64,000 nt of DNA from Vicinamibacterales bacterium (GCA_963663815.1 OY760734.1); one strand, 5' to 3'; shown: positions 12,729-29,373, counted from the first letter of the stretch. Numbers and translations: made by a program. Notes: generated from the letters alone by a model not told the origin.

Positions 12729-12984
12729 CTACGAGCCGAACATCCGAAGGATGGCGACGGCCGCGCCGATCACGGCGGTGAGGATCACGCCCGTCTGCGC
12801 CAGCATGGCTCCCGCGAAGCGCCACGTCAGGCGAGCCTCAAGGGCGGCGAGGTCCGCCTTGGTGGCCATGTCGGCCGGCGCGTCGGCCGCCTGGCGCACG
12901 CCGTCAACGATGGCGTCGGCGTGTTCCGGCTTGATGCCGGCGACGGTCAGGCGGCGAGCGGCGGCGAGCGAGCGTGTCCAGCAT
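12729..12984 (-). pseudogene. DUF1640/CCDC90-like small coiled-coil membrane protein, frameshifted
   Basis: ATG CTG GAC ACG CTC (MLDTL) is joined to AAARRLTVAG...MATKADLAALEARLTWR by a 4-bp GCTC duplication that breaks the frame. A C-terminal TM segment is present. Confidence 0.65.
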
Positions 12985-13019
12985 CGGTCGGTCTTTCTCC
13001 CGCAATGCACGTCCCATTG

Positions 13020-13085
13020 TATCGACCAGGCCATCCGCGCGCGGGCGCCGGCGCCCCGACCCACGGCGACATCGTGAAGGTCGAG
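13020..13085 (+). repeat. Internally deleted relic of the DUF2272 gene
   Basis: Matches 12079-12098 exactly, joined to a diverged copy of 12238-12276. Confidence 0.7.
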
Positions 13086-13122
13086 ATCCGGCATCGCGAA
13101 GGCGTTCGACATCGCCACAGGG

Positions 13123-13153
13123 TTGAGGGTGGCCGAGTCGTCGCCGCCGTACG
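13123..13153. repeat. 31-bp exact direct repeat, copy 1 (TTGAGGGTGGCCGAGTCGTCGCCGCCGTACG)
   Basis: Identical to 19593-19623. Confidence 0.9.
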
Positions 13154-13155
13154 TC

Positions 13156-15034: not shown

Positions 15035-15060
15035 GGGGTTCTGTTCTCTTCCAGAGGCGG

Positions 15061-15114
15061 GTTTCGAATATTGTAGCGTTTCATCATGGGCGAAACTAGA
15101 TATGTTATGAAACG
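15061..15114. promoter_or_regulatory. Candidate antitoxin operator: CGTTTCAT-N22-ATGAAACG plus GTTTCG...CGAAAC
   Basis: Inverted repeats at 15077-15084/15107-15114 and 15061-15066/15091-15096 in an AT-rich patch upstream of the AbiEi-like gene. A TACAAT -10-like hexamer lies on the minus strand. Confidence 0.5.
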
Positions 15115-15324
15115 ACGCATCGCCGGAATCCGAATCGACCTGGGCGATCTCCTCGCCGGGCTCCACGGTCGTCTGCCGATCGTCGGGCGCCGGACAATGA
15201 ACGAAGCCGGTCGACCGCACGTCCAACTCCACGACTCGCGCGGCGCTCGCTCCAGATCTCTTGTCGCGGGCACGGAAGCAGGAACAAGACGAGGGGCTCG
15301 GGGTCCAACGTCCTGGGGGAAGAG

Positions 15325-18300
15325 ATGCGCTACTTCATCGCTACGCTGACGCTGCTGGTCTCGCTGGGCGCGACGACCACCTGGGCCCAGATCGACGCCC
15401 GGATGCTGCGCTACCCCGACGTCTCAGCGACGCAGATCGCCTTCGTCTACGCCGGCGACATCTGGGTGGTCGCCAAGGAGGGCGGCTCGGCCCGCAAGCT
15501 GAGCTCGCCGCCCGGGGAGGAGGCCTTCCCGCGGTTCTCGCCCGACGGCGCGCAGATTGCCTTCAGCGGCAACTACAACGGCAACACCGATGTCTACGTC
15601 GTCCCGACCCTGGGCGGTGCGCCGTTCCGGATCACGCACCATCCGGGCGACGACCGGGTCCTCGACTGGACCCCGGACGGCCGGGGCGTCCTCCTCGCCT
15701 CCAACCGGCGGAGCGGGCTGCCCTCGTTTCGGCAGATCTACCGCGTCGCGAGCGAGGGCGGTCAGCCCGAGCGGCTCGCCGTGCCGTACGGGGAGTTCGG
15801 CACGCTGTCGCCCGACGGGCGGCGCATCGCCTACACCCCGGAGACCCGCGGGTTCCGAACGTGGAAGCGCTACCGGGGCGGGGCCGCGCCCGAGATCTGG
15901 CTCCTCGATCTCGAGACGCTCGACGCCGAGAACGTCAGCGACAGCCCGGCCAACGACGCCCAGCCGATGTGGCACGGCGACCGGCTGTACTTCCTCTCCG
16001 ATCGCGGGCCGGCCCAGCGGTACAACATCTGGGCCCACGACCTGACGACCGGCTCGAAGCGGCAGGTGACCGCCTTCACCGACTTCGACATCACGTTCCC
16101 CGCCATCGGGCCGTCGGACCTGGTCTTCCAGGCCGGGGGCCGGCTCTTTCGCATGGACCTCGCCACCGAGCGGGTCTCGGAGGTCGCGGTCGACGTGGTG
16201 ACCGACCTGGCTGCCCTGGTCCCGCGCACCGCGGACGTGGCGAATCGCATCACCTCGGCGGGGATCTCGCCGACCGGGCAGCGAGCCGTGTTCGAGGCGC
16301 GGGGCGAGATATTCACGGTCCCCGCCCGGCACGGCGCGGTGCGCAACCTGACGCACTCGTCGGGCGCGGCGGATCGGTTCCCGGCCTGGTCACCCGACGG
16401 CCGGTGGATCGCCTCGTGGAGCGACAGCGGGGGCGAGTACGAGCTGACGCTGCACCGGGCCGACGGCGCCGGCGAGCCGCAGGTCGTGACCGCGCTCGGA
16501 CCGGGGTTCCGCTACCGCCCGTTCTGGGCCCCCGACAGCACCAAGCTCGCCTTCATCGACCACACGCAGCGCATCCACGTCTTCGACCGCGAGACCGAGG
16601 CGCTGACCGAAATCGACCGCGGGCTGCACATGCTGCATAACGCGCTGGCCGGCTTCGAGCTGAGCTGGTCGCACGACAGCCGCTGGGTCGCCTGGTCCCG
16701 CGGGCTCGAGACCAACAACAGCGCCGTCTTCCTCTTCGATACCGAGGCCGGCGAGCGTTTCCAGGTAACCTCCGGCTACTACAACGACTTCCGGCCGGTC
16801 TTCGACCCCGCCGGCAAGCACCTCTACTACTACTCGAACCGGACGCTCGCCCCGGTCTATTCCGATCTCGACGCCACGTGGGTCTACCCGAACGCGACGA
16901 ACATCGTGGCCGCAACCCTGCGCGACGACGTGCCGTCGCCCCTCGCGCCCCGAAACGACGAGGAGCCCGTCGCGGAGGACGACGACGAGGCCGAGCCTGA
17001 CGAGGACGCGGCCGGGGAGGCGGACGAGGCGGAGCCCGGGTCGGACGACGAAGACGATGCCGGGACGCCGCCGCTCGACATCGACGTCGACGGCTTCGAG
17101 AGCCGGGCCGTGATGCTGCCGGTCGAGGCCGGCAACTTCGGCCGCCTGCGGGCGGTCGACGGCAAGGTCGTCTTCCACCGGAGGCCGCGCGCCGGCGCCG
17201 CCGGCGACCAGCCGAGCCCCATCGTCGCCTACGACCTCGAGGAACGGGAGGAGCAGACCATCCTGCCCGACGGAGACAGCTACGAGATCTCGGCGGACGG
17301 CAAGAAGCTGCTCGTGTCGAACGAGCGGTCATGGGCGATCGTCGACGTCGCGCCGGGGCAGACGCTGGAAGACCGCCTGGCCACCAACGCGCTGACGATG
17401 ACCCTCGATCCGTCCGCCGAGTGGCGGCAGATGTTCGACGAGGTGTGGCGCACCTATCGGGACTACTTCTACGACGACGACCTGCACGGCCTCGACTGGA
17501 ACGGACTGCGGGCGCAGTACGGCGGCCTGCTCGACCAGACCGTCACGCGCTGGGACGTCAACTTCCTGATCGGCGAGCTCATCGGCGAGGTCAACGCCTC
17601 GCACACCTACGTCGGCGGGGGCGACACCGAGGCGCCGCGCCGGCGCGGCGTCGGTCTGCTCGGCGTCGACTGGTCGCTGGAGAACGGCGCCTACCGCATC
17701 GCCCGCATCGTGCGGGGCGCGCCCTGGGACATCGCCGACCGGTCTCCCCTCGACGAGCCCGGCGTCGACGTCGACGAAGGCGACTACCTGCTCGCCGTCA
17801 ACGGCAACCCCCTCGACCCGGCGCGCGACCCGTACTCGGCCTTCGAGGGACTGGCGGGCGAGACGGTTCTCCTCACCGTGAACGACCGGCCGACCGTCGA
17901 GGGCGCCCGCGAGGTCGTCGTGACGACGTTGAGAAGCGAGGCTACGCTCCGGATGCGCGACTGGATCGAGCAGAACCGCCTCCGTGTCGACGACGCCTCG
18001 GGCGGCCGCATCGGCTACGTGTACGTGCCGAACACGGGGGTACCCGGTCAGACCGAGCTGGTGCGGCAGTTCAACCACCAGCACAACAGGGACGGGCTGA
18101 TCATCGACGAACGGTGGAACGGCGGCGGTCAGCTGCCGGACCGCTTCGTCGAGCTGATGAACCGGAAGACGGTCGGCCACATCTACTTCCGGCACGGCGC
18201 GACCGCGCGTCAGCCGACCATCACCCACCGCGGCCACAAGGCGATGCTGATCAACGGCCAGGCCGGCTCGGGCGGCGACGCGTTCCCGTGGTTCTTCCGC

Positions 18301-18639
18301 GAGATGGACGCGGGCGTTCTCGTGGGCGAGCGCACCTGGGGCGGCCTGATCGGCCCCGCCTCGGGACACCAGCTCATCGACGGCGGCTTCTACACGGCGC
18401 CCCCCGGGCGGCTCTACCGCAACGACGGGCAGTGGTTCGCGGAGGGGCACGGGGTCGAGCCGGACATTCCGGTGACGGACCACCCGGGCGAGCTGGCCAG
18501 GGGGAACGACCCCCAGCTCGACGCGGCGGTCGCGGAGCTCATGCGCCGCATCCGGGAGGATCCCCCGGCGCTGCCCGCGCCGCCCGGTGACGAGCGCCGG
18601 ATCGCCACCGATTCCGACGGCGGGAACGGGGACCGTTAG
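15325..18639 (+). CDS. Tricorn protease homolog (S41 peptidase with beta-propellers and PDZ)
   Basis: Signal peptide, PD40-type repeats (PRFSPDG), GELNASH-like GEVNASHTY, IIDERWNGGG, GSGGD nucleophile, GERTWGG, EGHGVEPD. Confidence 0.95.
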   Translation: MRYFIATLTLLVSLGATTTWAQIDARMLRYPDVSATQIAFVYAGDIWVVAKEGGSARKLSSPPGEEAFPRFSPDGAQIAFSGNYNGNTDVYVVPTLGGAPFRITHHPGDDRVLDWTPDGRGVLLASNRRSGLPSFRQIYRVASEGGQPERLAVPYGEFGTLSPDGRRIAYTPETRGFRTWKRYRGGAAPEIWLLDLETLDAENVSDSPANDAQPMWHGDRLYFLSDRGPAQRYNIWAHDLTTGSKRQVTAFTDFDITFPAIGPSDLVFQAGGRLFRMDLATERVSEVAVDVVTDLAALVPRTADVANRITSAGISPTGQRAVFEARGEIFTVPARHGAVRNLTHSSGAADRFPAWSPDGRWIASWSDSGGEYELTLHRADGAGEPQVVTALGPGFRYRPFWAPDSTKLAFIDHTQRIHVFDRETEALTEIDRGLHMLHNALAGFELSWSHDSRWVAWSRGLETNNSAVFLFDTEAGERFQVTSGYYNDFRPVFDPAGKHLYYYSNRTLAPVYSDLDATWVYPNATNIVAATLRDDVPSPLAPRNDEEPVAEDDDEAEPDEDAAGEADEAEPGSDDEDDAGTPPLDIDVDGFESRAVMLPVEAGNFGRLRAVDGKVVFHRRPRAGAAGDQPSPIVAYDLEEREEQTILPDGDSYEISADGKKLLVSNERSWAIVDVAPGQTLEDRLATNALTMTLDPSAEWRQMFDEVWRTYRDYFYDDDLHGLDWNGLRAQYGGLLDQTVTRWDVNFLIGELIGEVNASHTYVGGGDTEAPRRRGVGLLGVDWSLENGAYRIARIVRGAPWDIADRSPLDEPGVDVDEGDYLLAVNGNPLDPARDPYSAFEGLAGETVLLTVNDRPTVEGAREVVVTTLRSEATLRMRDWIEQNRLRVDDASGGRIGYVYVPNTGVPGQTELVRQFNHQHNRDGLIIDERWNGGGQLPDRFVELMNRKTVGHIYFRHGATARQPTITHRGHKAMLINGQAGSGGDAFPWFFREMDAGVLVGERTWGGLIGPASGHQLIDGGFYTAPPGRLYRNDGQWFAEGHGVEPDIPVTDHPGELARGNDPQLDAAVAELMRRIREDPPALPAPPGDERRIATDSDGGNGDR

Positions 18640-18642
18640 CGC

Positions 18643-18816
18643 GTTGGCGTTGGGGTTGCCGTTCTGACGGTCGGCGCGACGGTTGTCGCGTCTCACTTCA
18701 GCCTGCACCGCGACATGGCTGATCTCCGCGAACGGATGGCGAAGCTGGAGGGCGCCATGGACGGCTGGACGAAGGCCGCCGACGCCCTCACCCCGCGCGC
18801 TCTTCCGCCAGCCTGA
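18643..18816 (+). pseudogene. Start-less small TM plus coiled-coil protein fragment (...DLRERMAKLEG...)
   Basis: Reads VGVGVAVLTVGATVVASHFSLHRDMADLRERMAKLEGAMDG; no start codon; in frame with the tricorn TAG. Confidence 0.45.
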
Positions 18817-18856
18817 GCTCGCGCCGCGTCCCGCCGCGACGTGTTGAACCGAAGAG

Positions 18857-19071
18857 TCAGAACGTGGCGATCGGGTTGATCGGCGACCCGGTGCCGCGCG
18901 TGGGCAGCGGCGCCGCCGTCAGCAGGAACTCGTAGCGGTTCAGCGAGGCGGCCACCTCCCCCACCGCCTCCAGGTCCAGGTTGTCGAACAGCGGCATCCC
19001 CAGGTAGATGAGCGCGAAGCGGTGGAGCGGGCGGGGACCGAGGTCGTCCGCCGCCATCACGGCCGCCTCGG
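18857..19071 (-). pseudogene. 3' fragment of the cyclase gene (copy of 20640-20854)
   Basis: 215 bp nearly identical to 20640-20854, beginning exactly at the stop codon. Confidence 0.92.
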
Positions 19072-19305
19072 TCACCCGTGAGGGGAGAGCGGCAGCGACA
19101 GGCGCGCAGGGGAGCTAGAGATTGTTCCGTGCGTGGATGCGGTGATCCCGTGGTTGGAGGAGCGGGGGGCAGAGGGCAGGCAGGGGCGTTTGTTTGAGGA
19201 GGAGGCGAAGGGACTGGAGTCGGATGTGAGAGACGTGAATCGGGCGGCGTCGGCGATGTACCGGGATCAGCTGCTGCGACGATCGCCGGGACGGTTGGTG
19301 AGGTG

Positions 19306-19488
19306 GAGCCGTTCCGCCGCGGGGTCATTTTCGCCGCCGGCGGGAACGTGCGCGGCACCGTGAGCCTCAAGCTGCTCTTGGCCGCCGACGGGCCCGACGA
19401 CAGCCGCGCCCTTCCCCCCAAGGGGACGGATCTTCGCCCACCTCAATCTGGGCACCGCACCAATCGCGACGGTCGCGCTGCCGCCACA
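19306..19488 (+). pseudogene. Degenerate 3' relic of the DUF2272 gene
   Basis: AGGNVRGTVSLKLL versus VGGNVRGAVSLKLL; ATCTTCGCCCACCTCAA and CGCTGCCGCCACA are shared with about 12275-12510. Confidence 0.75.
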
Positions 19489-19592
19489 TGATCAACGACA
19501 ATTATTTTGCCGGTCGCCGAGGTGGCGGGCGGCCGGCCGCGGGGGCACCCGCGGAGCGTGTGACACTGCCCGTTTGGGCGGCGCCCGCCCTC

Positions 19593-19623
19593 TTGAGGGT
19601 GGCCGAGTCGTCGCCGCCGTACG
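19593..19623. repeat. 31-bp exact direct repeat, copy 2
   Basis: Identical to 13123-13153. Confidence 0.9.
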
Positions 19624-19787
19624 GCCGGGGCAGGCCGGGAGGCCTGTCCGATGACCGACCTTGAGCAGGGACAGGCCTGGCCCGCCGCAGAGGAGGAGCA
19701 ACCAAGTTGTGGCGCGGGTCGGTCGAGTGGCGGAGAGCGGAGCCCACCGGGGTGGTTGAGAACCGCTCGCGAAGTACGGAGGTACGC

Positions 19788-20048
19788 ATGCGAGAGCGAC
19801 GCATCGGGATTCAGGAACTCCACGCGAACCTGGGCAGGTGCCTGGACGAGGTCCGGCACGGCACGACTCTTCTCCTGACGGATGGCGAGCATCGGGTGGC
19901 TCGCCTCGTCCCGGAGCCCGACGCCGGGGCCTCGGGGGGCGATCTTCCCATCGCCTGGAGCGGACGCCGGCTGAAGAAGACCAAGCCGAGGGCCCGCCTG
20001 CGCGGCCGGGGCAGCATGGCCGACATCGTCAGGGAGAACCGCCGGTGA
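19788..20048 (+). CDS. Phd/YefM family antitoxin
   Basis: GGAGG RBS; IGIQELHANLGRCLDEVRHGTTLLLTDGEHRVARLVP pattern; GTGA overlap with the toxin. Confidence 0.88.
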   Translation: MRERRIGIQELHANLGRCLDEVRHGTTLLLTDGEHRVARLVPEPDAGASGGDLPIAWSGRRLKKTKPRARLRGRGSMADIVRENRR

Positions 20049-20485
20049 CGCTGCTCTATCTGGACACGAGCGCCCTGTTCAAGCGCTACGTCGAGGAGGC
20101 CGAGTCGGAAGCGCTGCTCGGCCGGATCGAAGACGCCCCGGCGGTTGGAACGGCCTTGGTCACGCGGGTCGAGGTGGCGGCGGCGCTGGCGAAGGCGGTG
20201 CGTGATGATCGCATGCCGTCTGCGGAAGCGCGCCAGGCCGAGAGCGATTTCCTCGACGACTGGACCGACTTCACGAGAATCGGATTGACGGACGATGTGG
20301 CGGCGCGCGCAGGCCGGCTCGCCTGGAAACACGACCTGCGAGGCTACGACGCCGCGCAGTTGGCGGCCGCGCTCGCGTGGCGCGAGGCCACCGAAGACGC
20401 AGAGGACCAGGTCGTGTTCGCCTGCTTCGACAACGATCTGCGCCGGGCAGCTGCGGCGGAAGGCCTCGAGACATGGCCGGCATGA
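20045..20485 (+). CDS. vapC: VapC family PIN-domain toxin
   Basis: YLDTSALFKRYVEE...VEVAAAL...LRGYDAAQLAAAL...FACFDNDL acidic PIN residues. Confidence 0.9.
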   Translation: MTLLYLDTSALFKRYVEEAESEALLGRIEDAPAVGTALVTRVEVAAALAKAVRDDRMPSAEARQAESDFLDDWTDFTRIGLTDDVAARAGRLAWKHDLRGYDAAQLAAALAWREATEDAEDQVVFACFDNDLRRAAAAEGLETWPA

Positions 20486-20639
20486 ACGCTGCCGACGTGT
20501 TGGTGCGGGGGCGGTCGCATGCTGTCTCTACCGCCCCCCCGGCGGGGCCTTGGCCCGGTGCCTGAGCCGCGCCGCCCCCTCGGTCGCTGCCGGCCGTCGT
20601 GGACGTGGCCGTCGTCTGCGGTATCCCGCTTGGCCGACC

Positions 20640-21689
20640 TCAGAACGTGGCGATCGGGTTGATCGGCGACCCGGTGCCGCGCGTGGGCAGCGGCGCCGCG
20701 GTCAGCAGGAACTCGTAGCGGTTCAGCGAGGCGGCCACCTCCCCCACCGCCTCAAGGTCCAGGTTGTCGAACAGCGGCATCCCCAGGTAGATGAGCGCGA
20801 AGCGGTGGAGCGGGCGGGGACCGAGGTCGTCCGCCGCCATCACGGCCGCCTCGGCGTCGGCCGGGGCCATGTCCTGGGCCGCCTCGCCGCCCAGTATCGC
20901 GATATCCCGTTCCCTCAGCCACGGAATCACCGACGCGTGCAGGCCGGCCGCCGCGTTGGCCACGTCCCAGGGCCCGACCTCGGCGCGCCGGGCCCAGCGG
21001 CCGGTGCGGATGACCACCACGTCGCCGGCGGAGACCGTCACCCCCGTCGCCGCCTCCCAGGCCTCGATGTCCTCGATGCGGATCGGCGTGCCGGGCTCCA
21101 GGTACGGCACGTTGCGGAACCGCGCCATGTCGATCAGCACGCCCCGGGTGACGATGCCCGACTTGGCGTTGTGCACGGTGTTCCTGGCGTGGCCGCCGCG
21201 GGCCGCGACCTCGGCGGGATCGGGCCGGTAGTCGTTGTAGGTCACGCCCTCGCCGATGAAGTTGTGGTTCAGGAAGTCGAGGTGGGTGTGGATGAACCCG
21301 TGGTACGCGATTCGGATCTCGTCGGCGGTGATGCCGAGCGGGGTGACCTGATAGGGCCGCGGGCCGTCGACCGTCGCCTCGGTCTCGGCGTCGCGCGCAA
21401 GCGAGACGGAGATGCCCTCGCGCACGAGGGCGGCGGCCTGCCTGCGCTTCTCAGGCGTGATGAGGTTCAGGGTGCCCCGCTCGTCGTCGGCGCCCCACCG
21501 GCCCCAGTTCGTCAGCTCCTGCTTCCACCGCTCGACGTCCGTCTGCGTGACCTGCTGTCCGCCGGCGGCTGGCGCCGAGCCCGGCTGGAAGCCCGGGGAG
21601 CGGACGGTCTGCCCGAACAACGGCACCGCGACGACGCACGCCAGCGCGACGACGCCGGCCAGACTCGATTGTCTCTTCGCTGTCCCCAT
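20640..21689 (-). CDS. Secreted cyclase family (kynurenine formamidase-like) metal-dependent hydrolase
   Basis: NWGRWGADDERGTLNLIT, HTHLD, GIVTRGVLID, GDVVVIRTG and GTGSPINPIA motifs; signal peptide. Confidence 0.92.
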   Translation of the reverse strand: MGTAKRQSSLAGVVALACVVAVPLFGQTVRSPGFQPGSAPAAGGQQVTQTDVERWKQELTNWGRWGADDERGTLNLITPEKRRQAAALVREGISVSLARDAETEATVDGPRPYQVTPLGITADEIRIAYHGFIHTHLDFLNHNFIGEGVTYNDYRPDPAEVAARGGHARNTVHNAKSGIVTRGVLIDMARFRNVPYLEPGTPIRIEDIEAWEAATGVTVSAGDVVVIRTGRWARRAEVGPWDVANAAAGLHASVIPWLRERDIAILGGEAAQDMAPADAEAAVMAADDLGPRPLHRFALIYLGMPLFDNLDLEAVGEVAASLNRYEFLLTAAPLPTRGTGSPINPIATF

Positions 21690-22123
21690 CGAACCCTCCC
21701 TGGCTCCGCCCCGTGGTCGCTGCCCGCTCCGCCCCGGCGCCCAGATGTTCCCCGTCCGACCCCGCTATTAGGCCGTTCACGGTCCCGCTCTCCCCGCTCC
21801 GCCGAGCACCGGCCCGATGATAGCCCACCCGGCGTCTGCAGGTCTCGGGGTGGACCGCGCGCACCGCCTCCGCGCCAAGCCGCAGTTCCGTCCGTCGGCG
21901 AGCGGTTGAATGTGCGTTCTTGGCACAACACGTATACTGTATGCTCTTTGGCCTTTTCTGGTACACAGGGAGACCGTATCCGTGATGTTCTCCGTCCGCG
22001 ACAGCCCGAAGCCCCTCGTCATGACAGCGACTTCGCCGTATTGGGCGCCGTCACGCAGTCTGAGCGAAGACCGCCGAAGCTGCCCCATTGGCGAACTGCG
22101 AGCAACAGGAGGAGCAAGCCACC

Positions 22124-22390
22124 ATGACAACGGCTGATGACATACGGCGGTACACCATCGAGCACTACATAGCCCCGGCCCGCGCCGCCGGTCACCAGGA
22201 AGTTAGCATTCGATTGGGCGATATACGTCGGAATATGGGACTCATGAACCCACTTCAGTCGGTACGCAGCGCGCTCGGCACCAAACTCCTTCAAGATGAA
22301 GCGGGTGTTGAGCCTCTTGCGCCCATTCATCCGCGCGCGGGTGCGGACACGTACTGCCGTTTTCGTATCCGGCCCCTTCCCCCACAGTAG
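22124..22390 (+). CDS. Small hypothetical protein (possible nucleic-acid-binding domain)
   Basis: GGAGG RBS, 88 codons, ADDIRRYTIEHYIAPARAAG..VSIRLGDI pattern. Family not assignable with certainty. Confidence 0.6.
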   Translation: MTTADDIRRYTIEHYIAPARAAGHQEVSIRLGDIRRNMGLMNPLQSVRSALGTKLLQDEAGVEPLAPIHPRAGADTYCRFRIRPLPPQ

Positions 22391-22451
22391 CATGTCGTTA
22401 CGGAGCCACGACGTCCCTAGCTTGCCGACGACACGGTCACACCTCGCTCGT

Positions 22452-22635
22452 AGTCCGGTCGAGATCTCGATCCGAGCGTTGCCCGTGAGGTCGACATAGC
22501 CGACCCCACGAGTGCGAAGCATGGCCCGAGTAGGAGGGGAAGACAGGCGGCCGCCACAACGCAGACGGCGCGCGGCGACGCGCCGCCCGCGGTCACCGAG
22601 ATCTGCTCGACTGCCCGGAAGACGTCGCGTGCTCG
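22452..22635 (-). pseudogene. Frameshifted internal relic of the AbiEi-like antitoxin gene
   Basis: Homologous to about 14650-14830 (RAVEQIS...RAMLRTRGVGYVDLTGNARIEIS). Confidence 0.8.
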
Positions 22636-22713
22636 CCCGACCCATCCGAAGAGACGCAGACTCCCGATGGTCACCGTCCCCGCGGCGGACCACCGTCCCG
22701 ACCATCCCCCCGG

Positions 22714-23250
22714 GTAATACGTTAGCGTGGTGGGCGTCTGCTACGGTGCGCGGCCTTGCTGGTCGGGTGCGACGGAGGGCGTAGGTGAGCGAAGCAGGCC
22801 CACGATCACGGCATGGGGATTGTGCTGGCGTTGACAGGCGGTACGGATGACGGAGGCGAGTGTCTGCTGGGTGGCCGCGCCGGGCCAGGAGCGATTGCCT
22901 CCGCACACTTTGGGGGTGACGACGGCGGGACGAATGGCCTGTTCGGCGCGCCAGTTGGTAGCGTCGATGGCGGGGTTGCGCAGGAACGTGAACAGCGCTT
23001 TCTATTCCGTGGTCAGATGCTTCGCGAACCACCGCACGTGGTCAGTGGGCCGGCGTGGAGCAGTCGTCGGGCAAGTCGCGCGGCCAGGGCTTGCAGCGCT
23101 TCGCCGACGTCATCACGGGACCGCTCACCGGCGCGGGCGTCGTCCCGCAGGCGAAGGGCCTGCTTCAACAGGGCGTGAATGTCTGCCGCTTTCACGCCGC
23201 GCTTCGAAGCCTGCCGCTCGCGCCGACGCGGCAACCAATTGCCCCCGCGG
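22714..23250 (-). mobile_element. IS66-family transposase 3' remnant with a possible terminal sequence
   Basis: Minus strand gives IHALLKQALRLRD..., then after a frameshift FAKHLTTE*KALFTFL..AIDATNWRAEQAIRPAVV..KVCGGNRS...QQTLASVIRT. Stop at 22741-22743; GTAA-starting end at about 22714. Confidence 0.8.
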
Positions 23251-23317
23251 ATGAGCCTCGATTCGAGGGTTCGCGACCCCCTTGCGCACCCCGACACACC
23301 CGACACGCAGCCGATCA

Positions 23318-25800
23318 CTACCCAGTTCTAACCGCTGTTGAGAATGCGTTCACCAAAGCACCACCATTCAATTCAAACTGCGCAAGCCTCTTGGCGACCT
23401 CCGTCGCGCTCCTCCCAATGTCCGGGTCGACTAGCTGTTGCGCAAGTTCCCGCACGTTCTTCCGCAGTTTTGCCAGATGTGTCTCAGCAATAACTCGCAT
23501 CCCCTCCAGCACGCTAGCGCCCTGACCCAGAGTAGCATCTCTGTGGACAATGACCGGCACCCCGGTGGACGCTGGGTAGCGCGCTCTAAACCATGCCATT
23601 GATTGACCAAGCTGACCAGCATCCCTCTTGGAAATACCGCCGCTAGTGGATGCTACACCGTTCTTGCACTCGATCACTAGGAACGAGCCATTTGATAGCG
23701 CCCAAAGGTTGTCCGGACCCTCCTTGCAGTCCCTTTCCGGCCTCTGGCCCCTAATACCGATGAACCACGCGAGGTCATTGACCGCAGCTTCGAACGTATC
23801 CGACGATTCCATTTTGAATTGCAGATCGCTGCAGAGCTCGTCAGCAAACAGTCTCATCATCGTAGGATCTATAAACCTGCCGCCGTGATTCTCGATCAGC
23901 GCCACCGCTTGCTTCCCTGTCGCCGGAGCAAGTCGCTTGTATGTGGCGCCAAACATCGGTTTGATGACTCCCGATTCCATTTTGTGAGCGGCCACTAGTG
24001 TCCTCTGGGCTCCATCCGCATCCATGGCATGCTGGAAGGCAGCCTTCTTCGAAAGTAGCCACGCCTTGACTTGACCTTCCTCTGTGTCATCGATAGCCTC
24101 GTCCAGGACGGCGACAGCCTCATTGTGCTGATTGGCGCGCGCTCTATCGAAAGCGGCACGAATTGCAATCTTACCAGCGTCAAGTCGCAGCTCATCCTCC
24201 GCTTTCAGGCCGACAAGAGCCTTCTTGCTCACTTTGACCCAGCCAGAATCTCGGCTAATGCACTGCAGAATAACGCTCTTCAGTTCGCCAATAGTCGGCC
24301 TATTCAACTTCTTGGCGATTCTGCGTGACAATCCGAGCTGGGCGGAGGTTGCCGGAGTCAACAGTTTCATCCCCTCCCCTGAGCGCAATCTACCGGTGAG
24401 CTTCGGCCCCAATAGGATAACAACGCAATAGTCGTCGTTAGACCGCACCCCCCGTCCCATTCCTTGTTCTATTCGCTCAAGTTGTCTCTGAAGATTCACG
24501 AATGTACCCGTCAGCACTTGACTGTCAACGAGATCCGCATACGAACTCACTTCTGGCAGGTCCACTATCGCAAGCACACGACAAGCGTCGCCCGGAAGGT
24601 CAATCCCGTCGTAACGGTTTACCAAAACGGTTAATCCCACGTGCCTTTTCGAAGCTCCTCTATGCCATGGGCAACCTCGTCGCCAACAAGCACGTGATTT
24701 GCGCTTTTCGTCCAATCTTTCGCTGCCACCTTCGAGGGCACAATTGCGACGACGTTTACTTCTTCAGCTAGTTCGGTAAGGAGCTTGCGCACCCTCGCCG
24801 TTGTGAGTTCGGAATTCAACTCCTGTGGCATGAGAATCATACGCTCGCCCATGGATTGCGATGACGAAGGCACAATGGGGCCGACAAGGTTGGTCGGATT
24901 GGCACCAAAATGTGTGACAATCACGCTGTCGTCAGCGAGCGTAGCGGTCATGTAAATCCGGCGTTTCGCCCGGCGAAACGGGTGTATGAGATCCGTGGGC
25001 GGAAAGTAGGGTTCGATCTCCAGCCGCTGGCCACCGACGACGCAACGACATTGGCGCAGTATTTCTTTCAGCAGGGGGTAGGTGAATTGAAGCTCGTCGT
25101 CTCCTTGATGTTCATGTAACGCCCGCAGGATCTGAGCGTGGTGAGAAGCCCACGACCAGAACGGGACCTCCATGTGCGCTTGAGGGTCGCCCGCTTCGAC
25201 ATCAAGGAAACGCGCTTCGTTGTATCCTTTCAGGTCTTCAGAGAGAGCCGTGAGTATCTTCCGGTACGCTTCGTGAGTGTTCGGTAACTTGATCCTAAAC
25301 TGCTTGGTGATGGTGGATAGACACGCATGGGCGTCGTCAATAACGACTGTTCCGATGTCGATTCGGGTTGTGCCTACACCAAAAACAGATCTACCATTGA
25401 AGAGTTTGTAGATGTTTACGACACAGATCTTATCGCCGGCCGCATAGTCAGCGTCGTACGGATCGCCAGTTACCTCGATGCCGAGTGCCTTTGCCTCGTC
25501 TATTACTTGCCGGGATAGTTGATTGTCCGGGGAGACGTACAGCGACGGTCCCGTGCGTTCGTTTAGAGAGCTTTGCAGCAACAACAAACCGACGAGCGTC
25601 TTGCCGCTGCCAACATTGAGCTTAATGATATTGTCGGGATTGTTGCGCTCCTCAAACCAGCGGTTCATGACCTCGGTCTGGATATCGCGAGGAAATGAGA
25701 AATCCGGCGTGCGGTTTAGCGTGATGAAGATCTCGCGAGGGTGGAGTGCGAGTTCCTCATCATCGTCAAACATGTCAGAAAAGTCGATCGGCATACTCAT
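23318..25800 (-). pseudogene. SF2 (DinG/XPD-like) helicase plus C-terminal PD-(D/E)xK nuclease, Hna-like anti-phage protein, split by a single-base frameshift
   Basis: ORF 24631-25800 has LNVGSGKT, IDDAH and MTATL. ORF 23318-24715 has VNRYDGIDLP, RQLERIEQGMGRGVRS and GPDNLW...VIECK. The frames join at the T4 run 24646-24649. The region is visibly lower in GC than its flanks. Confidence 0.8.
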
Positions 25801-26282
25801 TTATCCCCAAGATTCGGTGGTGTCTTCGGAATCCATGCGGTGCTCGGGACTTGACAATCGAGGCCGGTGACCGTGCCTGTGCCCATGTGAACGTTGGCCG
25901 CCGACGCCGCGGCTCGCTTTGCGCCTCAAGCATGACAGGAAGGCGGGTGGATGGCAAGATGGCTCCCAAGGCCGGGGGTGCTGCCCAAGATCTACGCAGG
26001 CTTGGGCGGGAAGATCGGCTGAGTTGGAGGCGTAGCCGTGGATGGGTCGCGGGCGACTGGGGCCAGCGGACCGGGGCCGCGGTCGCGATGGGGGCAGAGA
26101 CGCGTTATGGCGGCGCCCTTTGTTCCTCGGGCACGGTGCTTGGTCGCACTTCGGGCGGGCGAGCGGTACTGTCGCGTAGCGGCGACGTCTGGAGGACGAT
26201 GTTCGGAGCGGGCTACGCCAAGGGGGCGGTGGGTGCCGGGTGCCGGCTGGCCCTAGCGATGCCCCCCCGCCTCGGCGACCAC

Positions 26283-27025
26283 GCCGCCGCGTTGGCCACG
26301 TCCCAAGGGCCGACCTCGGCACGCCGGGCCCAGCGGCCGGTGCGGATGACCACCACGTCGCCGGCGGAGACCGTCACCCCCGTCGCCGCCTCCCAGGCCT
26401 CGATGTCCTCGATGCGGATCGGCGTGCCGGGCTCCAGGTACGGCACATTCCGGAACCGCGCCATGTCGATGAGCACGCCCCGGGTGACGATGCCCGACTT
26501 GGCGTTGTGCACGGTGTTCCGGGCGTGGCCGCCGCGGGCCGCGACCTCGGCGGGATCGGGCCGGTAGTCGTTGTAGGTCACGCCCTCGCCGATGAAGTTG
26601 TGGTTCAGGAAGTCGAGGTGGGTGTGGATGAACCCGTGGTACGCGATTCGGATCTCGTCGGCGGTGATGCCGAGCGGGGTGACCTGATAGGGCCGCGGGC
26701 CGTCGACCGTCGCCTCGGTCTCGGCGTCGCGCGCGAGCGAGACGGAGATGCCCTCGCGCACGAGGGCGGCGGCCTGCCGGCGCTTGTCCGGCGTGATGAG
26801 GTTCAGGGTGCCCCGCTCGTCGTCGGCGCCCCACCGGCCCCAGTTCGTCAGCTCCTGCTTCCACCGCTCGACGTCCGTCTGCGTGACCCGCTGTCCGCCG
26901 GCGGCCGGCGTCGAGCCCGGCTGGAAGCGCGGGGAGCGGACGGTCTGCCCGAGCAACGGCACCGCGACGACGCCCGCCAGCGCGACGACGCCAACAAGGC
27001 TCGATCGTCTCCTGGTTGTTCCCAT
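26283..27025 (-). pseudogene. 5' three-quarters of a second cyclase gene copy (matches 20947-21689), truncated
   Basis: Near-identical coding sequence at constant offset 5336. Upstream non-coding homology continues to about 27175. Confidence 0.92.
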
Positions 27026-27175
27026 TGGTCCCCCCTGGTGCCGCTCCGTGGTCGATCGCGGCTCTGCGACCCGGAGCCCGAGACGTCCTCCGCCGATCGG
27101 ATCAGGCCATCGAACGGTTCCCGGTCCCGCGTGCCTCACGCCGCGAGGCACGGCCTGATGATAGTCCCTCCGGTT

Positions 27176-27290
27176 CGCTCAGCGCGTCGGCAGCATCGAC
27201 CAGCGCAGTGCGGGCGCGAACGTACAGCCGGTCAGGACCGCCAGACGTGCTCGTTCCACCCCATCCACGCCAGCATCTCTTCGCCTTGTG
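27176..27290 (-). pseudogene. Relic of the AbiEi-like/NTase gene junction
   Basis: Homologous to about 13896-14012 (GTGCGGGCGCGAACGTACAG..GGTCAGGACCGCCAGAC.TGCTCGTTCC). Confidence 0.8.
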
Positions 27291-27911
27291 CGCCGTACCA
27301 GCCGTCGCAGCGATACTATGTTCTGGACGTGGCGCGCATGGCGGACGCAGACTTGCCAGCGGGCAACCTGGTGTCGGCGCTCATCGGTCTGGAGAAGACG
27401 CGCGACGCGGCGGGCCTGCGCGAGGCGCTGAAGGCGCTGTCCGGCCTGCTGCGGCAGCAGAAGGGACGACGCGTTGACCCAGGCGTTCGTGACGTGGCTG
27501 CACCAGGGGTTGCGGCATGCGGGCCGGCTGCAGGCGGACGGAGAGAACCCCTTGGCGCAGTTACAGGAGACGCAGACGATGCTGGAAGAGACGGTGCGGG
27601 AATGGACGCGGGAATGGCTCGAGCAGGGCCGCGCCCAAGGCATCGAGCAGGGCCACGCCCAAGGCATGGAGAACGGCATCGAGAAGGGGCGCGTCCAGGG
27701 CATCGAGCAGGGCCGCCACGAAGAGCGGGCGTTGCTCTGCCGTCTGGCGGCCCGGAAATTCGATGCCGGGGCCGCCGAGGGGCTGGCCGCCGCCCTGGCC
27801 GGCGTCACCGACCCGGACCGCCTTGCGCGGGTCGGCGACTGGATCATCGAGTGCGCGTCGGCGTCGGACCTGCTGGCCCGCGTCCGCGGCGACAACGGGC
27901 CGGGCGGCTGA
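27290..27911 (+). pseudogene. Rpn-family recombination-promoting nuclease/putative transposase, 5'-truncated and frameshifted
   Basis: YQPSQRYYVLD..NLVSALIGLEK, then a shift at the GGG run 27463-27465, then LTQAFVTWL..MLEETVREWTREWLEQG(RAQGIEQG)..ERALLCRLAARKF..LARVGDWIIEC. Confidence 0.85.
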
Positions 27912-28293
27912 GGCGCCGGTGCGCCAGCGCCTCTCCCGGAGAGCGTTGCGTGGCGGCCGGCGGTGACCGCCAGCTCGGCGGCGCGGACCGGAGCCCCCCC
28001 CGCGCCCGGTGCGGGCTCGCTTTCTGACTCCGGGATGCCAGGCACCGGTCGACAGGCGCGTCCGGCGCGTGGGTGCGGCCCTGCTCGCCGCCGTCCTCAT
28101 CTGCGGCGTGACCGCCCTGACGGCCCTGCACGCGGATGCTCAGGCGCCACCGCCGACCGAACAACCGGCTACGATGTCCTCTACCCTTGCGGTACCCGAA
28201 CCGCCAGGGTCGCCGCAACCCTGAGAGTCCCGGGGCTGAGAGCACGAATCCCGGCGGGAACGCGCCAACGGGAAACGGGCCAGGATCGAGAGC

Positions 28294-29181
28294 ATGCTCA
28301 CGCTGCTGCCGGACGAGAGAACGTGGCTCGACCGTTACCGGGAAGCCATCAGGACGGAATGCCCGGACGCGGTGCGGGATCTCCTGATCTACGGCTCGAA
28401 GGCGCGAGGGGACGCCCACGAGGACAGCGACATCGACATGCTCGTGATCGTGAAGAAGGGCCACGATCACGTGAAGAACCGGCTGACCGACATGGCGGAC
28501 GACCTCGCGGTGACGGCGAACGCCGCACCGTCCACGATCGCACTGACCGAAGACGAGTGGGGGCGCATGAAGGCGCTGAGACTGCCCTTCCAGCGGAATG
28601 TGGAACGGGACGCGGTCTCGGTTCTCTCCGGCCCGAGCGAGGAGAGAGGACGGGCACGGAAGGCGCACGGCAGGGAGGGCCGCCGGCGGGCGGGATCACC
28701 GGCGGCGCGAGCCGGAGGGCAGACCATCGAGGAGCGCCCGATGAACAAGGAAGCGGTGCTGGCCGAATGGGGAAGCGCGGCCGATGCGCTGATCGATACG
28801 CGGGTGATGAGGGAGCAGGGGCGTGTGAAGGGCACCATCTCTCGGGGCTACTACGCCATCATGCACGCGGCCAGGGCCGCACTGCTCGTCCACGACGTGA
28901 GCACGTCGAGCCACGAGGCGGTACGGAAGAAGTTCGGCGAGCACGTCGTGAAGAGAGGCGGAATCGAAAGAGAATGGGGCAGGATGCTGCACCCCAGCGC
29001 CAGACAGAGGCAGCTGGCGGACTACGGGACCTCGACGACGATCAGCTTCACCGAGCAGGACGCCGACTCGGCGGCGGAGAACGCTGCGAAGTTCGTACAG
29101 CGCACACGGGACTACCTGCTCGCGGCGGGACTGACCGAACGAGAGCTCGACAGCATCGTCGATGACTCGCTTCCGATCTGA
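28294..29181 (+). CDS. In-frame fusion of minimal nucleotidyltransferase (MNT) and HEPN domain (type VII TA-like)
   Basis: IYGSKARGDAHEDSDIDML (NTase); SRGYYAIMHAARAALL...H..V...RQLADY (HEPN). An internal GAGGAG plus ATG lies at 28741. Confidence 0.88.
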   Translation: MLTLLPDERTWLDRYREAIRTECPDAVRDLLIYGSKARGDAHEDSDIDMLVIVKKGHDHVKNRLTDMADDLAVTANAAPSTIALTEDEWGRMKALRLPFQRNVERDAVSVLSGPSEERGRARKAHGREGRRRAGSPAARAGGQTIEERPMNKEAVLAEWGSAADALIDTRVMREQGRVKGTISRGYYAIMHAARAALLVHDVSTSSHEAVRKKFGEHVVKRGGIEREWGRMLHPSARQRQLADYGTSTTISFTEQDADSAAENAAKFVQRTRDYLLAAGLTERELDSIVDDSLPI

Positions 29182-29373
29182 CGCCAGGCAGTATCCGGAT
29201 ATCGCCGGCCCGTGGAACGAGAGCTGGCGCGCCCCCCAACGCCGCAGCCTACCCGGCCCAAGATGGAGGCTGGCGGGTGTCGGCGAATCCCCCCATTGCG
29301 GTTTGCCGCACAGGCTCCTAGAATGGGGTTCCGGCACCAGCCGGAAACCGCGTTCGCACCGAGGAGGCCCCGG

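What the first reader, a model, noticed from the sequence alone, without database searches (positions are those of the whole stretch)
18857..27175. Cyclase gene split by a ~7.2 kb insert that itself carries an intact replacement copy plus defence genes
The 3' fragment (18857-19071, matching 20640-20854) and the 5' fragment (26283-27025, matching 20947-21689) are in the correct order to be two halves of one gene, lacking only 92 bp. Between them (19072-26282) lie Phd/VapC, a complete cyclase copy, an unknown ORF, AbiEi and IS66 relics, and the Hna-like gene. This looks like an island that integrates into a metabolic gene and supplies a functional copy, with no integrase visible in the window.
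Basis: partly seen in the sequence, partly recalled or inferred. Interest (0 to 1): 0.65.

Follow-up and report, generated by a model that had tools for sequence, protein, structure and literature searches.

The report
Core gene split by recombined DNA
A conserved enzyme gene in an uncultured soil/sponge-type bacterium is split by 7.2 kb of DNA that came from relatives' versions of the same chromosomal spot and includes an intact copy of the gene; this looks like a recombination scar at a hot spot for toxin-antitoxin and phage-defence genes, not a new kind of mobile island.

Summary
18857-19071 repeats 20640-20854 (213/215 nt). 26283-27168 repeats 20947-21826 (92%). Only 92 bp (20855-20946) are unique to the middle copy.

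- **Junctions are real.** Independent assemblies from five sequencing runs span both junctions without a mismatch.
- **An empty site exists.** A same-species-level Vicinamibacterales genome (L001) has one uninterrupted gene between the same neighbours.
- **The insert is polymorphic.** Within samples it is present in only part of the population.

No recombinase lies in or near the insert.

- **The cargo is mostly wreckage.** It holds an Hna homologue with a real -1 frameshift, an IS66 transposase relic, a relic of an HTH-protein gene and a McrB-like N-terminal fragment. Only Phd/VapC and the cyclase-family gene are intact.
- **The insert is a diverged copy of the same neighbourhood.** It carries relics of the genes that flank the native locus, in the same order.
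- **The two halves occur separately.** Some strains carry the VapBC block and its 3' repeat without the Hna block.

Most likely, two homology-anchored events built it. Each combined one exchange inside the cyclase gene with one illegitimate joint, which duplicates part of the anchor gene. This is an ordinary kind of event, well documented here. Interest is low to moderate.

The parts
18857..19071 (-). B': orphan 3' fragment of the resident cyclase-family gene (gene nt 836-1050 including the stop), contiguous with the native downstream DNA and the tricorn-like protease gene (15325-18639)
   Evidence: 213/215 nt identical to 20640-20854. Window 18646-19071 is collinear with L001 11261-10836 at 97.7%.
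19072..19787 (.). Distal part of block Y. Non-coding, with a decayed C-terminal relic of a DUF2272 gene (19301-19480, like 12269-12450) and a relic of the 5' end of the 172-aa gene (19593-19638, like 13123-13169)
   Evidence: blastn and tblastx against window 11000-15300. Junction 19071/19072 is spanned by contigs of X1-X5 and X10.
19788..20048 (+). Phd/YefM-like antitoxin. The likely start is ATG 19788, behind a GGAGG; the longest ORF runs from 19707
   Evidence: PF02604, E=5e-4, 20.1 bits, below the curated cut-off of 29.8. Its stop overlaps the VapC start by 4 nt (GTGA).
20045..20485 (+). VapC-type PIN-domain toxin, intact, 146 aa
   Evidence: PF01850, E=1.7e-9, 38.8 bits against a cut-off of 23.6. 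The same cyclase-VapC adjacency is seen in L003 at 90.7% identity.
20640..21689 (-). Intact cyclase-family (PF04199) gene, 349 aa
   Evidence: PDB 5ibz, E=1e-29. 96% aa identity to L001, and every difference after codon 153 is synonymous.
20855..20946 (-). The 92 bp (gene nt 744-835) present only in the intact copy
   Evidence: Two haplotypes of this stretch are found together with the insert in different runs.
21690..21826 (-). Foreign upstream region of the intact copy. It is homologous to the native upstream region but very diverged
   Evidence: 51 differences in 137 nt against 27026-27168. The native copy differs from L001 by only 8.
22088..22390 (+). 100-aa ORF: an N-terminal fragment of a McrB-like AAA ATPase
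   Evidence: tblastn finds 33-43% identity to 'AAA family ATPase' genes on plasmids. In Caulobacter pNIBR24541 the match lies near the N-terminus of a 708-aa ATPase that is followed by a 'restriction endonuclease'. No Pfam, NCBIfam or PADLOC hit.
22458..22631 (-). Relic of the N-terminal part of the 425-aa HTH-protein gene that is intact at 13955-15232
   Evidence: 83% identical to 14649-14823. 81% identical to L004 8857-9033, where the full gene sits upstream of the cyclase gene.
22771..23049 (-). Relic of the C-terminal ~93 aa of an IS66-family transposase, with an in-frame stop
   Evidence: tblastx gives 57-65% identity to L027 1772-3310 and L005 16547-18100. The L027 protein matches PF03050 DDE_Tnp_IS66, E=1e-33. 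The stop codon is noted.
23318..25800 (-). Hna homologue (SF2 helicase plus PD-(D/E)xK nuclease), broken by a -1 frameshift near 24643; about 54% GC against 70% for the genome
   Evidence: The two ORFs match PADLOC PDC-S28 positions 1-388 and 387-826. The read-through 827-aa protein matches the solved Hna structure (PDB 10UJ/9YKJ), E=2e-128. The frameshift is present in contigs of five runs. An RNA contig from another host's metagenome has the extra base.
25801..26266 (.). Distal part of block X: GC-rich DNA with no recognised gene
   Evidence: No match in 122 related loci or in runs of other organisms.
26267..26282 (-). 16-nt patch at the junction (gene strand GTGGTCGCCGAGGCGG). Thirteen of its nucleotides match gene nt 832-844 at 12/13, so CCGAGGCGG flanks the whole insert as a 9-bp direct repeat
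   Evidence: Direct reading. The 9-mer occurs 14 times in the window on both strands.
26283..27168 (-). A': orphan 5' fragment of the resident gene (gene nt 1-743 at 26283-27025) with its native upstream region
   Evidence: 92% identical to 20947-21826. Window 26283-27653 is collinear with L001 10743-9371 at 95.4%. Junction 26282/26283 is spanned by contigs of five runs.

Best explanation
This is a recombination scar at an accessory-gene hot spot, not a self-mobile island.

**Setting.** The chromosome is a Vicinamibacterales (Acidobacteriota) genome, probably host- or sponge-associated. In this group the DNA on either side of a conserved cyclase-family gene varies from genome to genome and collects toxin-antitoxin and defence genes.

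**Proposed events.** DNA from related strains, carrying their own diverged version of this locus, entered twice. Each time the only usable homology was the cyclase gene.
- One homologous exchange took place inside that gene.
- The far, non-homologous end of the incoming DNA was joined illegitimately inside the same gene.
- Mechanistically this is either a single crossover by a circularised donor fragment that carried only part of the gene, or homology-facilitated illegitimate recombination.

**Outcome.** Such an event duplicates part of the anchor gene. It leaves one intact, mosaic gene plus an orphan fragment.
- Block Y (Phd/VapC) came in through the 3' end and left orphan B'.
- Block X (a foreign promoter region, defence-gene relics and Hna) came in through the 5' end and left orphan A'.
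- The 92 bp is simply the distance between the two illegitimate joints.

**Shown:** the structure, the empty site, the foreign flanks, the separate occurrence of X and Y, and the polymorphism.
**Inferred:** the order of events and the molecular route.
For: - **Empty site.** L001 has one gene between the same neighbours, and eight other relatives have a single copy.
- **Junctions confirmed.** Five runs span both junctions.
- **Polymorphism.** The insert is shallower than its flanks: 715-890 against 1500-1900 in X2, and 72 against 96-171 in X4. A native uninterrupted contig exists in X12.
- **Y without X.** Runs X6 and X10 hold Y at 99.8% identity, and X10 spans the B'|Y junction. X6 has zero depth across most of X, X10 has none over the part of X tested (21742-22100), and neither shows the foreign upstream region.
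- **X elsewhere.** X8, X9 and the RNA run X23 hold pieces of X at 99-100% identity, while their flank is 97.4% identical.
- **Mosaic intact copy.** Against A' it differs at 51/137 upstream positions, 14/130 in nt 1-130, and only 12/613 from nt 131 to 743. A' tracks L001 in the upstream region.
- **Same neighbourhood.** The insert carries collinear relics of the locus's own neighbours. The cyclase-VapC adjacency exists in L003, and a tricorn-less arrangement exists in L005.
- **Hot spot.** The downstream neighbour differs in nearly every relative and often includes defence genes.
- **No recombinase.** None lies in the insert, and the flanks are syntenic with L001.
- **Precedent.** In E. coli conjugation experiments, most integrants were single crossovers of circular molecules that had lost part of the homologous fragment, giving 109-950-bp duplications of the anchor locus (PMC3240628). 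HFIR has been proposed for orphan 3' fragments in T6SS and Rhs loci (PMC5361080).
Against: - The order of events cannot be proved. The Y-only and native forms could instead derive from the X+Y form by homologous recombination with native DNA, or between the repeats.
- SNP-level mapping of donor and recipient tracts is unreliable. The 92-bp segment has two haplotypes on insert-bearing genomes (X1/X2 against X3/X4), and alleles are scrambled among strains.
- 'X without Y' rests on low-coverage runs (2-5x).
- Both illegitimate joints fall within about 100 bp of each other. A 9-bp direct repeat (CCGAGGCGG) flanks the whole insert. This would fit a single insertion event better.
- No donor genome with the exact X or Y arrangement was found.
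- Nothing is known about transformation, end-joining or recombination in this uncultured lineage.
Confidence: 0.55

Rival explanations
1. One-step insertion, essentially the first reader's model. A single 7.2-kb donor fragment (X, a complete foreign cyclase gene, and Y) was inserted into the resident gene with two illegitimate joints, for example by end-joining at a break or a staggered cut. It removed 92 bp, or duplicated 9 bp and was followed by an ~88-bp deletion. Y-only and native forms arose later by homologous recombination.
For: - CCGAGGCGG (12/13 over 13 nt) lies at both ends of the insert.
- X and Y have similar depth in organism A runs.
- The insert as a whole is collinear with the native neighbourhood, as one contiguous piece of a relative's locus would be.
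- The 92-bp segment of the window's copy differs from the native-type allele at 5-6 sites.
Against: - It does not explain why a homology-independent insertion hit the one homologous gene.
- The insert termini have no IS ends and no inverted repeats.
- It needs an extra deletion next to the joint.
- The Y-only haplotype with a native-type 5' end and 92-bp segment needs a further precise recombination.
- The intact copy is resident-like over most of its length.
Confidence: 0.22
2. A site-specific integrative island that targets the cyclase gene and carries a replacement copy, with its integrase outside the window or supplied in trans.
For: An intact gene copy is preserved, as with elements that rebuild their target gene. 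A 9-bp direct repeat lies at the insert ends.
Against: - No integrase, resolvase or intact transposase lies in the insert. The DNA from 6189 to 36355 outside the three extra blocks is syntenic with L001.
- 92 bp of the target are missing, so the event was not conservative.
- X and Y have different distributions.
- The cargo is decayed.
- Hna relatives elsewhere are never linked to this gene.
Confidence: 0.05
3. An in-situ tandem duplication of the resident gene, followed by separate insertions of X and Y and by deletions.
For: Beyond about nt 140 the intact copy and A'/B' are 97.6-99% identical and share 11 derived codons relative to L001.
Against: - The intact copy has foreign DNA on both sides and a 37%-diverged upstream region, which a local duplication would not give.
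- The insert contains diverged relics of neighbouring genes in native order, which implies a second, xenologous copy of the locus.
- It needs more events.
Confidence: 0.06
4. An assembly chimera of co-occurring strains.
For: The samples do contain several strains, and the repeats are collapsed in short-read graphs.
Against: Both unique junctions, and the junctions of the intact copy, are present without a mismatch in contigs from five independent runs and two studies. The B'|Y junction is also present in another host's metagenome.
Confidence: 0.02

Closest known systems
Insertion-duplication by single crossover of a circular molecule carrying part of a gene (Campbell-type). Seen as the main outcome in E. 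coli conjugation experiments designed to detect HFIR (PMC3240628).
   Same: It gives an intact gene, the inserted DNA, and a partial duplicate of the anchor gene. The reported duplicates are 109-950 bp; here they are 215 bp and 743-880 bp. One joint is homologous and one illegitimate.
   Different: Here it is a natural event, seen twice at both ends of one gene. The donor is a relative's chromosome, not a plasmid. The mechanism is inferred, not observed.
Homology-facilitated illegitimate recombination, and the 'orphan' 3' fragments of Rhs / CDI / T6SS effector loci (PMC5361080 and references there)
   Same: A conserved gene segment serves as the anchor for incoming modules. Displaced gene ends stay behind as orphans next to the new module. 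It happens at a hot spot for conflict genes.
   Different: The anchor here is an ordinary enzyme gene, not a polymorphic toxin. A 5' orphan exists as well as a 3' orphan. Classical HFIR deletes recipient DNA rather than duplicating it.
Integrative elements that insert into a protein-coding gene and bring a replacement end, such as e14 or phage 21 in icd and SXT in prfC (from my own knowledge, not checked here)
   Same: The target gene stays functional because the incoming DNA supplies the displaced part. A displaced fragment remains at the far end.
   Different: Those elements use an integrase and short att cores, and they integrate conservatively. Here there is no recombinase, 92 bp are lost, and the repeats are hundreds of bp long.
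Hna anti-phage system (PDB 10UJ/9YKJ; PMC13381803)
   Same: The gene at 23318-25800 is a clear homologue (E=2e-128), with the helicase-helicase-nuclease layout.
   Different: The window's copy carries a -1 frameshift. An intact, transcribed version exists in another host's symbiont population.

Membership tests
Site-specific integrative island / prophage-type integration into a gene | Element-encoded integrase or recombinase | tested here: not met
   Pfam, NCBIfam and PADLOC scans of the insert ORFs found none. The flanks are syntenic with L001.
Site-specific integrative island / prophage-type integration into a gene | Conservative integration: the empty site equals the occupied site minus the element, with short identical att cores | tested here: not met
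   92 bp of the target are missing compared with L001. Only a 9-bp repeat (12/13 over 13 nt) is offset from one joint by a 7-nt filler.
Site-specific integrative island / prophage-type integration into a gene | The same bounded element recurs as a unit | tested here: not met
   Y occurs without X (X6, X10). Pieces of X occur in X8, X9 and X23. No cyclase linkage appears in 42 Hna loci.
Homology-anchored insertion (single crossover of a circularised fragment / HFIR) | One boundary lies within homology, so the gene is a donor/recipient mosaic | tested here: met
   The intact copy switches from a 37%/11% diverged upstream region and first 130 nt to about 2% divergence afterwards.
Homology-anchored insertion (single crossover of a circularised fragment / HFIR) | The other boundary is an abrupt illegitimate joint inside or near the anchor | tested here: met
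   Identity stops abruptly at 19071/19072 and at 26282/26283.
Homology-anchored insertion (single crossover of a circularised fragment / HFIR) | The donor is related DNA carrying the anchor next to heterologous genes | tested here: met
   L003 has cyclase-VapC-Phd. The insert holds collinear relics of the locus's neighbours.
Homology-anchored insertion (single crossover of a circularised fragment / HFIR) | RecA dependence, and a circular or linear intermediate | not testable with these tools
   The organism is uncultured, and only contigs of public runs were available.
Composite transposon / IS-mediated insertion | Intact transposase, terminal inverted repeats, target-site duplication | tested here: not met
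   Only a 93-aa IS66 relic with a stop, and it is internal to the insert. No inverted repeats. A 9-bp repeat is present but offset.
Hna defence system | A single ~830-850-aa protein with an SF2 helicase and a C-terminal PD-(D/E)xK nuclease, homologous to characterised Hna | tested here: met
   PDB 10UJ/9YKJ, E=2e-128, over residues 16-763. PADLOC PDC-S28, E=1e-151 and 1e-133.
Hna defence system | Uninterrupted reading frame | tested here: not met
   Two overlapping ORFs. One extra base after 24643, seen in RNA contig X23, restores 827 aa. The deletion is confirmed in five runs.
VapBC type II toxin-antitoxin | A PIN-domain toxin preceded by a small overlapping antitoxin gene | tested here: met
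   PIN scores 38.8 bits against a cut-off of 23.6. The GTGA overlap is present. The Phd match is below the cut-off (20.1 against 29.8), so the antitoxin family remains inconclusive.
PF04199 'putative cyclase' (kynurenine-formamidase-like hydrolases) | A domain match above the curated threshold | tested here: met
   54.8 bits against 23.1. PDB 5ibz, E=1e-29. The enzymatic activity was not tested.
AbiE (AbiEi/AbiEii) | A match to AbiEi or AbiEii models | tested here: not met
   The 425-aa and 271-aa proteins give no AbiE hit in Pfam, NCBIfam or PADLOC. They match only generic HTH domains. Plasmid homologues are annotated 'helix-turn-helix domain-containing protein'.

The most novel reading that the evidence does not exclude
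The partial cyclase copies may act as portable homology arms rather than being mere scars. Each cassette sits between direct repeats of the core gene: Y between 215-bp repeats, and X between 743-880-bp repeats. RecA alone could then loop it out as a circle and re-insert it by a single crossover into any relative's gene. That would always regenerate an intact gene plus the same orphan. It would amount to an integrase-free way for toxin-antitoxin and defence cassettes to spread between symbiont strains of different hosts.
Probability: 0.15. Interest if true: 0.6.

Novelty: new member of a known kind. Interest (0 to 1): 0.3.

Why it matters
This is a clean natural example of how accessory and defence genes are added next to a conserved gene without any dedicated recombinase. 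The event preserves the core gene and leaves orphan fragments at both ends.

All four expected states can be glimpsed in public data from two host species: native, Y-only, X-bearing and X+Y.

It also carries a warning for annotation. Such fragments and duplicated genes in genomes assembled from metagenomes can be real polymorphisms rather than assembly errors. A 'defence island' can also be mostly wreckage.

It does not reveal a new mechanism or a new system.

Tried and rejected
- **Exact-protein look-ups.** Searches for the intact cyclase protein, the 100-aa ORF and the Hna N-terminal ORF found nothing on record.
- **Metagenome scan with read-through Hna.** It gave 42 loci, with 75% identity at best. 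None is linked to a cyclase gene or shares DNA with the insert flanks.
- **RNA and signal scans.** The tRNA scan found nothing near the region, and the Rfam scan found nothing in 11000-30000. The promoter/terminator scan was at or below the level expected from shuffled sequence.
- **The 92-bp segment as a marker.** I tried to use the SNPs of the 92-bp segment and of the repeats to decide which tracts are donor and which resident, and hence the order of events. I abandoned this. Insert-bearing genomes carry two different 92-bp haplotypes, and the alleles are mosaics of each other.
- **AbiE label.** It was tested with three libraries and a plasmid search and not confirmed.
- **Distal end of X.** I looked in other organisms' runs to find where homology ends, but it is absent there.
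- **Target-site duplication at the neighbouring MNT-HEPN insertion.** None was found.
- **Inverted repeats at the insert ends.** None were found.

Full report
**1. The observation**

The window has 70% G+C. A self-comparison gives two direct repeats:
- 18857-19071 matches 20640-20854, with 213 of 215 nt identical (E=1e-107).
- 20947-21826 matches 26283-27168, at 92% over 889 columns. The 300 nt nearest the junction are 98% identical.

The first repeat starts exactly at the stop codon of the gene at 20640-21689(-). The second covers the first 743 nt of that gene plus about 140 nt upstream. Only 20855-20946 (92 bp) is unique to the middle copy.

The middle copy is an intact 349-aa protein of Pfam family PF04199, 'putative cyclase' (54.8 bits against a cut-off of 23.1). 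Its closest solved relative is an uncharacterised protein (5ibz, E=1e-29).

**2. Organism and empty site**

A scan of one genome per species found close orthologues only in Vicinamibacterales (Acidobacteriota) genomes assembled from metagenomes.

The closest, L001 (OZ242323.1), is 94-97% identical in DNA over the flanks. It has a single uninterrupted gene between the same neighbours:
- Window 15269-18637 (tricorn-like protease) and 18646-19071 align to L001 14980-11612 and 11261-10836.
- Window 26283-27653 aligns to L001 10743-9371.

The two fragments are therefore the ends of the resident gene, and exactly L001 10744-10835 (92 bp) is missing. None of nine close genomes has a partial or second copy of the gene at this locus.

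**3. The junctions are real and the insert is polymorphic**

Contigs of five public runs (X1-X5; five samples, two studies, one coded host 'organism A') span both junctions with no mismatch or gap. They cover 19042-19567 (or 19042-19499) and 21523/21627/22969-26351.

In every run the insert is shallower than the flanks:

| Run | Insert depth | Flank depth |
|---|---|---|
| X2 | 715-890 | 1500-1900 |
| X4 | 72 | 96-171 |

Strains without the insert therefore coexist with strains that carry it. A 578-nt contig in run X12 (a second host, 'organism B') joins the native downstream DNA, the 3' part, the 92 bp and the 5' part in one piece. That is the native form.

Other partial holders of the region are labelled 'sponge metagenome'. 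A sponge metatranscriptome contains RNA contigs of native-type alleles of the gene.

**4. What the insert contains**

Reading the + strand, the insert falls into two blocks around the intact gene.

*Block Y (19072-20639):*
- A decayed C-terminal relic of a DUF2272 gene (19301-19480, like 12269-12450).
- A 46-nt relic of the 172-aa gene (19593-19638, like 13123-13169).
- A small Phd-like ORF, whose Pfam match is below threshold.
- An intact PIN/VapC gene that overlaps the Phd-like ORF by GTGA.

*The intact gene:* 20640-21689(-).

*Block X (21690-26282):*
- A 137-nt upstream region that is homologous to the native one but differs at 51 positions.
- A 100-aa ORF that matches the N-terminal part of McrB-like 'AAA family ATPase' genes, which on plasmids are followed by a restriction endonuclease gene.
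- A relic of the 425-aa HTH-protein gene (22458-22631).
- A relic of the last ~93 aa of an IS66 transposase, with a stop codon.
- A 54%-GC Hna homologue.
- 466 bp of unassigned GC-rich DNA.

*Hna.* It is split into two ORFs that match PADLOC PDC-S28 positions 1-388 and 387-826. Adding one base after 24643 gives an open 827-aa frame. That protein matches the solved Hna protein (PDB 10UJ/9YKJ, 845 aa) with E=2e-128. The extra base is present in an RNA contig from organism B. The deletion is present in all five organism A runs. So the frameshift is real in this lineage, while an intact, transcribed copy exists elsewhere.

*AbiEi.* This label could not be confirmed.

*Recombinases.* No recombinase gene lies in the insert. 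The DNA around it is syntenic with L001, apart from two other small extra blocks that also lack one.

**5. The insert is a diverged copy of the same neighbourhood**

The native order is: DUF2272 gene, 172-aa gene, HTH gene, tricorn-like protease, cyclase gene. The cyclase gene is followed by a relic of the HTH-gene region at 27176-27290. In L004 the full HTH gene sits upstream of the cyclase gene.

The insert repeats this order in relic form: DUF2272 relic, 172-aa relic, (Phd/VapC), cyclase gene, HTH relic.

Two relatives show matching arrangements:
- L003 has the cyclase gene followed directly by VapC and Phd, with a 90.7%-identical joint. VapC there is interrupted by an IS256-type element.
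- L005 lacks the protease gene between DUF2272 and the cyclase gene.

Across nine relatives the DNA just beyond the stop codon is different almost every time. It includes a Type ISP restriction enzyme and a PLD/SNF2 helicase in L003, a duplicated 904-bp protease fragment in L002, and large unrelated genes in L004-L008. This is an accessory-gene hot spot whose fixed edge is the cyclase gene.

**6. The intact copy is a mosaic**

Differences between the intact copy and the 5' orphan A':

| Region | Differences / length |
|---|---|
| Upstream | 51 / 137 |
| nt 1-130 | 14 / 130 |
| nt 131-250 | 4 / 120 |
| nt 251-500 | 1 / 250 |
| nt 501-743 | 7 / 243 |

- A' follows L001 in the upstream region, with only 8 differences.
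- The intact copy and A' share 11 codon states that differ from L001.
- The 3' repeats differ at 2 of 215 nt.
- The 52 nt after the stop of the intact copy resemble L002, not the native downstream DNA.
- After codon 153 every difference from L001 is synonymous, so the gene is under purifying selection.

Only the flanks and the extreme 5' end of the intact copy are clearly foreign.

**7. X and Y occur separately**

- *Y without X.* Organism B runs X6 and X10 hold Y at about 99.8% identity, and X10 spans the B'|Y junction (contig 19042-19494). X6 has zero depth over most of X (near-zero elsewhere), X10 has none over 21742-22100, and neither shows the foreign upstream region. Their gene has the native-type 5' end. 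In X6 the depths of the flank (5.4), Y (6.1) and the 92-bp contig (5.7) fit one dominant Y-only strain.
- *X elsewhere.* Runs X8 and X9 and the RNA run X23 hold pieces of X at 99-100% identity. Their flank is 97.4% identical, and their VapC region is only 93% identical. Coverage there is low, so the context of X in organism B is unknown.

**8. Mechanism**

The topology is: orphan 5' piece, X, intact gene, Y, orphan 3' piece. This is what two insertion-duplications give.

A DNA circle carrying [part of the gene + heterologous DNA] that recombines once with the chromosomal gene produces an intact gene, the heterologous DNA, and a partial duplicate that ends at the circle's closing joint.
- For Y, the partial copy is nt 836-1050.
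- For X, it is the upstream region plus nt 1-743.
- The 92 bp is then not a deletion but the gap between the two closing joints.

There is experimental precedent. In E. coli conjugation experiments designed to detect homology-facilitated illegitimate recombination, 56 of 60 integrants were single crossovers of circular molecules that had lost part of the homologous segment. They gave 109-950-bp duplications of the anchor (PMC3240628). One-ended homologous anchoring with an illegitimate far joint has also been proposed for orphan 3' fragments in T6SS and Rhs loci (PMC5361080). Donor DNA bridging sister chromosomes can give duplications during transformation (PMC3784515).

I therefore favour two homology-anchored events (confidence about 0.55).

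The main rival is a single insertion of the whole 7.2 kb, about 0.2. The strongest point in its favour is an oddity at the A'|X joint:
- On the gene strand the joint reads GCGGCGGC-GTG-GTCGCCGAGGCGG-GGGGGCAT.
- GTCGCCGAGGCGG matches gene nt 832-844 at 12 of 13 positions.
- The last 9 nt of that match (CCGAGGCGG) are the first 9 nt of B'.
- So a 9-bp direct repeat brackets the whole insert.
- The 9-mer occurs 14 times in the window on both strands, so the chance of it lying within 10 nt of the joint is about 1e-3.

This could be a microhomology used for the joint, templated filler, or a target duplication followed by an ~88-bp deletion. I cannot tell which. The termini have no IS ends or inverted repeats.

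**9. Limits**

- Fine SNP mapping could not settle the order of events. The window's 92-bp segment has 3-4 private synonymous GC-to-AT changes within 25 nt. Runs X1 and X2 carry that haplotype. Runs X3 and X4 carry the same insert with a native-type 92-bp segment. Recombination has scrambled the alleles.
- Y-only and native forms could be ancestors of the X+Y form, or could derive from it by recombination.
- No donor genome with the exact arrangements was found.

**10. Verdict**

The reading 'an island that integrates into a metabolic gene and supplies a functional copy' is only partly right. There is no sign of a dedicated element. The cargo is largely decayed. The pattern fits recombination between relatives' versions of a hot-spot locus, anchored in a conserved gene.

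It is a new instance of a known kind of event. Interest is low to moderate (0.3). The most novel reading still open is that the gene fragments serve as portable homology arms for integrase-free spread of cassettes (probability about 0.15).

Noticed in passing
window 12536-15268: An extra block relative to L001, lying between the DUF2272 gene and the tricorn-like protease. It holds a 425-aa HTH protein (13955-15232, -), a 271-aa protein (13156-13971, -) and a 172-aa protein (12729-13247, -). It looks like a two-gene toxin-antitoxin or defence pair, but there is no AbiE hit or any other family hit beyond generic HTH domains. Relics of it lie at 22458-22631 and 27176-27290.
   Followed up: partly
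window 27924-29291: A third extra block relative to L001. It carries a single 295-aa protein with nucleotidyltransferase and HEPN domains fused (28294-29181; PADLOC PDC-S09). No target duplication is seen at its ends.
   Followed up: partly
window 24643 (Hna gene 23318-25800): The -1 frameshift in Hna is present in all five organism A runs. An RNA contig from a different host's metagenome has the extra base and an open frame. The same gene is therefore dead in one symbiont population and transcribed in another.
   Followed up: yes
window 20855-20946: A cluster of 3-4 private synonymous GC-to-AT changes within 25 nt of a gene whose third codon positions are 95% G+C. Insert-bearing genomes in runs X3 and X4 have a native-type version of this stretch instead.
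   Followed up: partly
window 52532-55224 and 55580-58211: A roughly 2.7-kb tandem duplication: 84% identical over 2 kb, then 92% identical over 0.66 kb.
   Followed up: no
window 6848-7006; 38399-38555; 27619-27723: Short tandem repeats: two 79-nt copies (95%), two 77-nt copies (87%), and 24-nt units inside the 145-aa gene at 27474-27911, which has a weak FliH-like match.
   Followed up: no
L002 11115-12018 vs 13313-14216: In this relative, a 904-bp internal fragment of the tricorn-like protease gene is duplicated (97%) right after the cyclase stop codon. It is preceded by 52 nt that resemble the DNA downstream of the window's intact copy. This is another partial-gene duplication at the same hot spot.
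   Followed up: partly
L003 11050-20203: In this relative the cyclase gene is followed by VapC (interrupted by an IS256/Mutator-family element that has a second copy 9 kb away), then Phd, a Type ISP restriction-modification enzyme and a PLD + SNF2 helicase. A 130-bp fragment of the tricorn-like protease gene lies just upstream of the cyclase gene.
   Followed up: partly
window 22714-23009: The IS66 relic region has very high depth in other organisms' runs (for example 355 against under 10 around it in X14), and RNA contigs cover it. Related IS66 elements are multi-copy and expressed in these communities.
   Followed up: no
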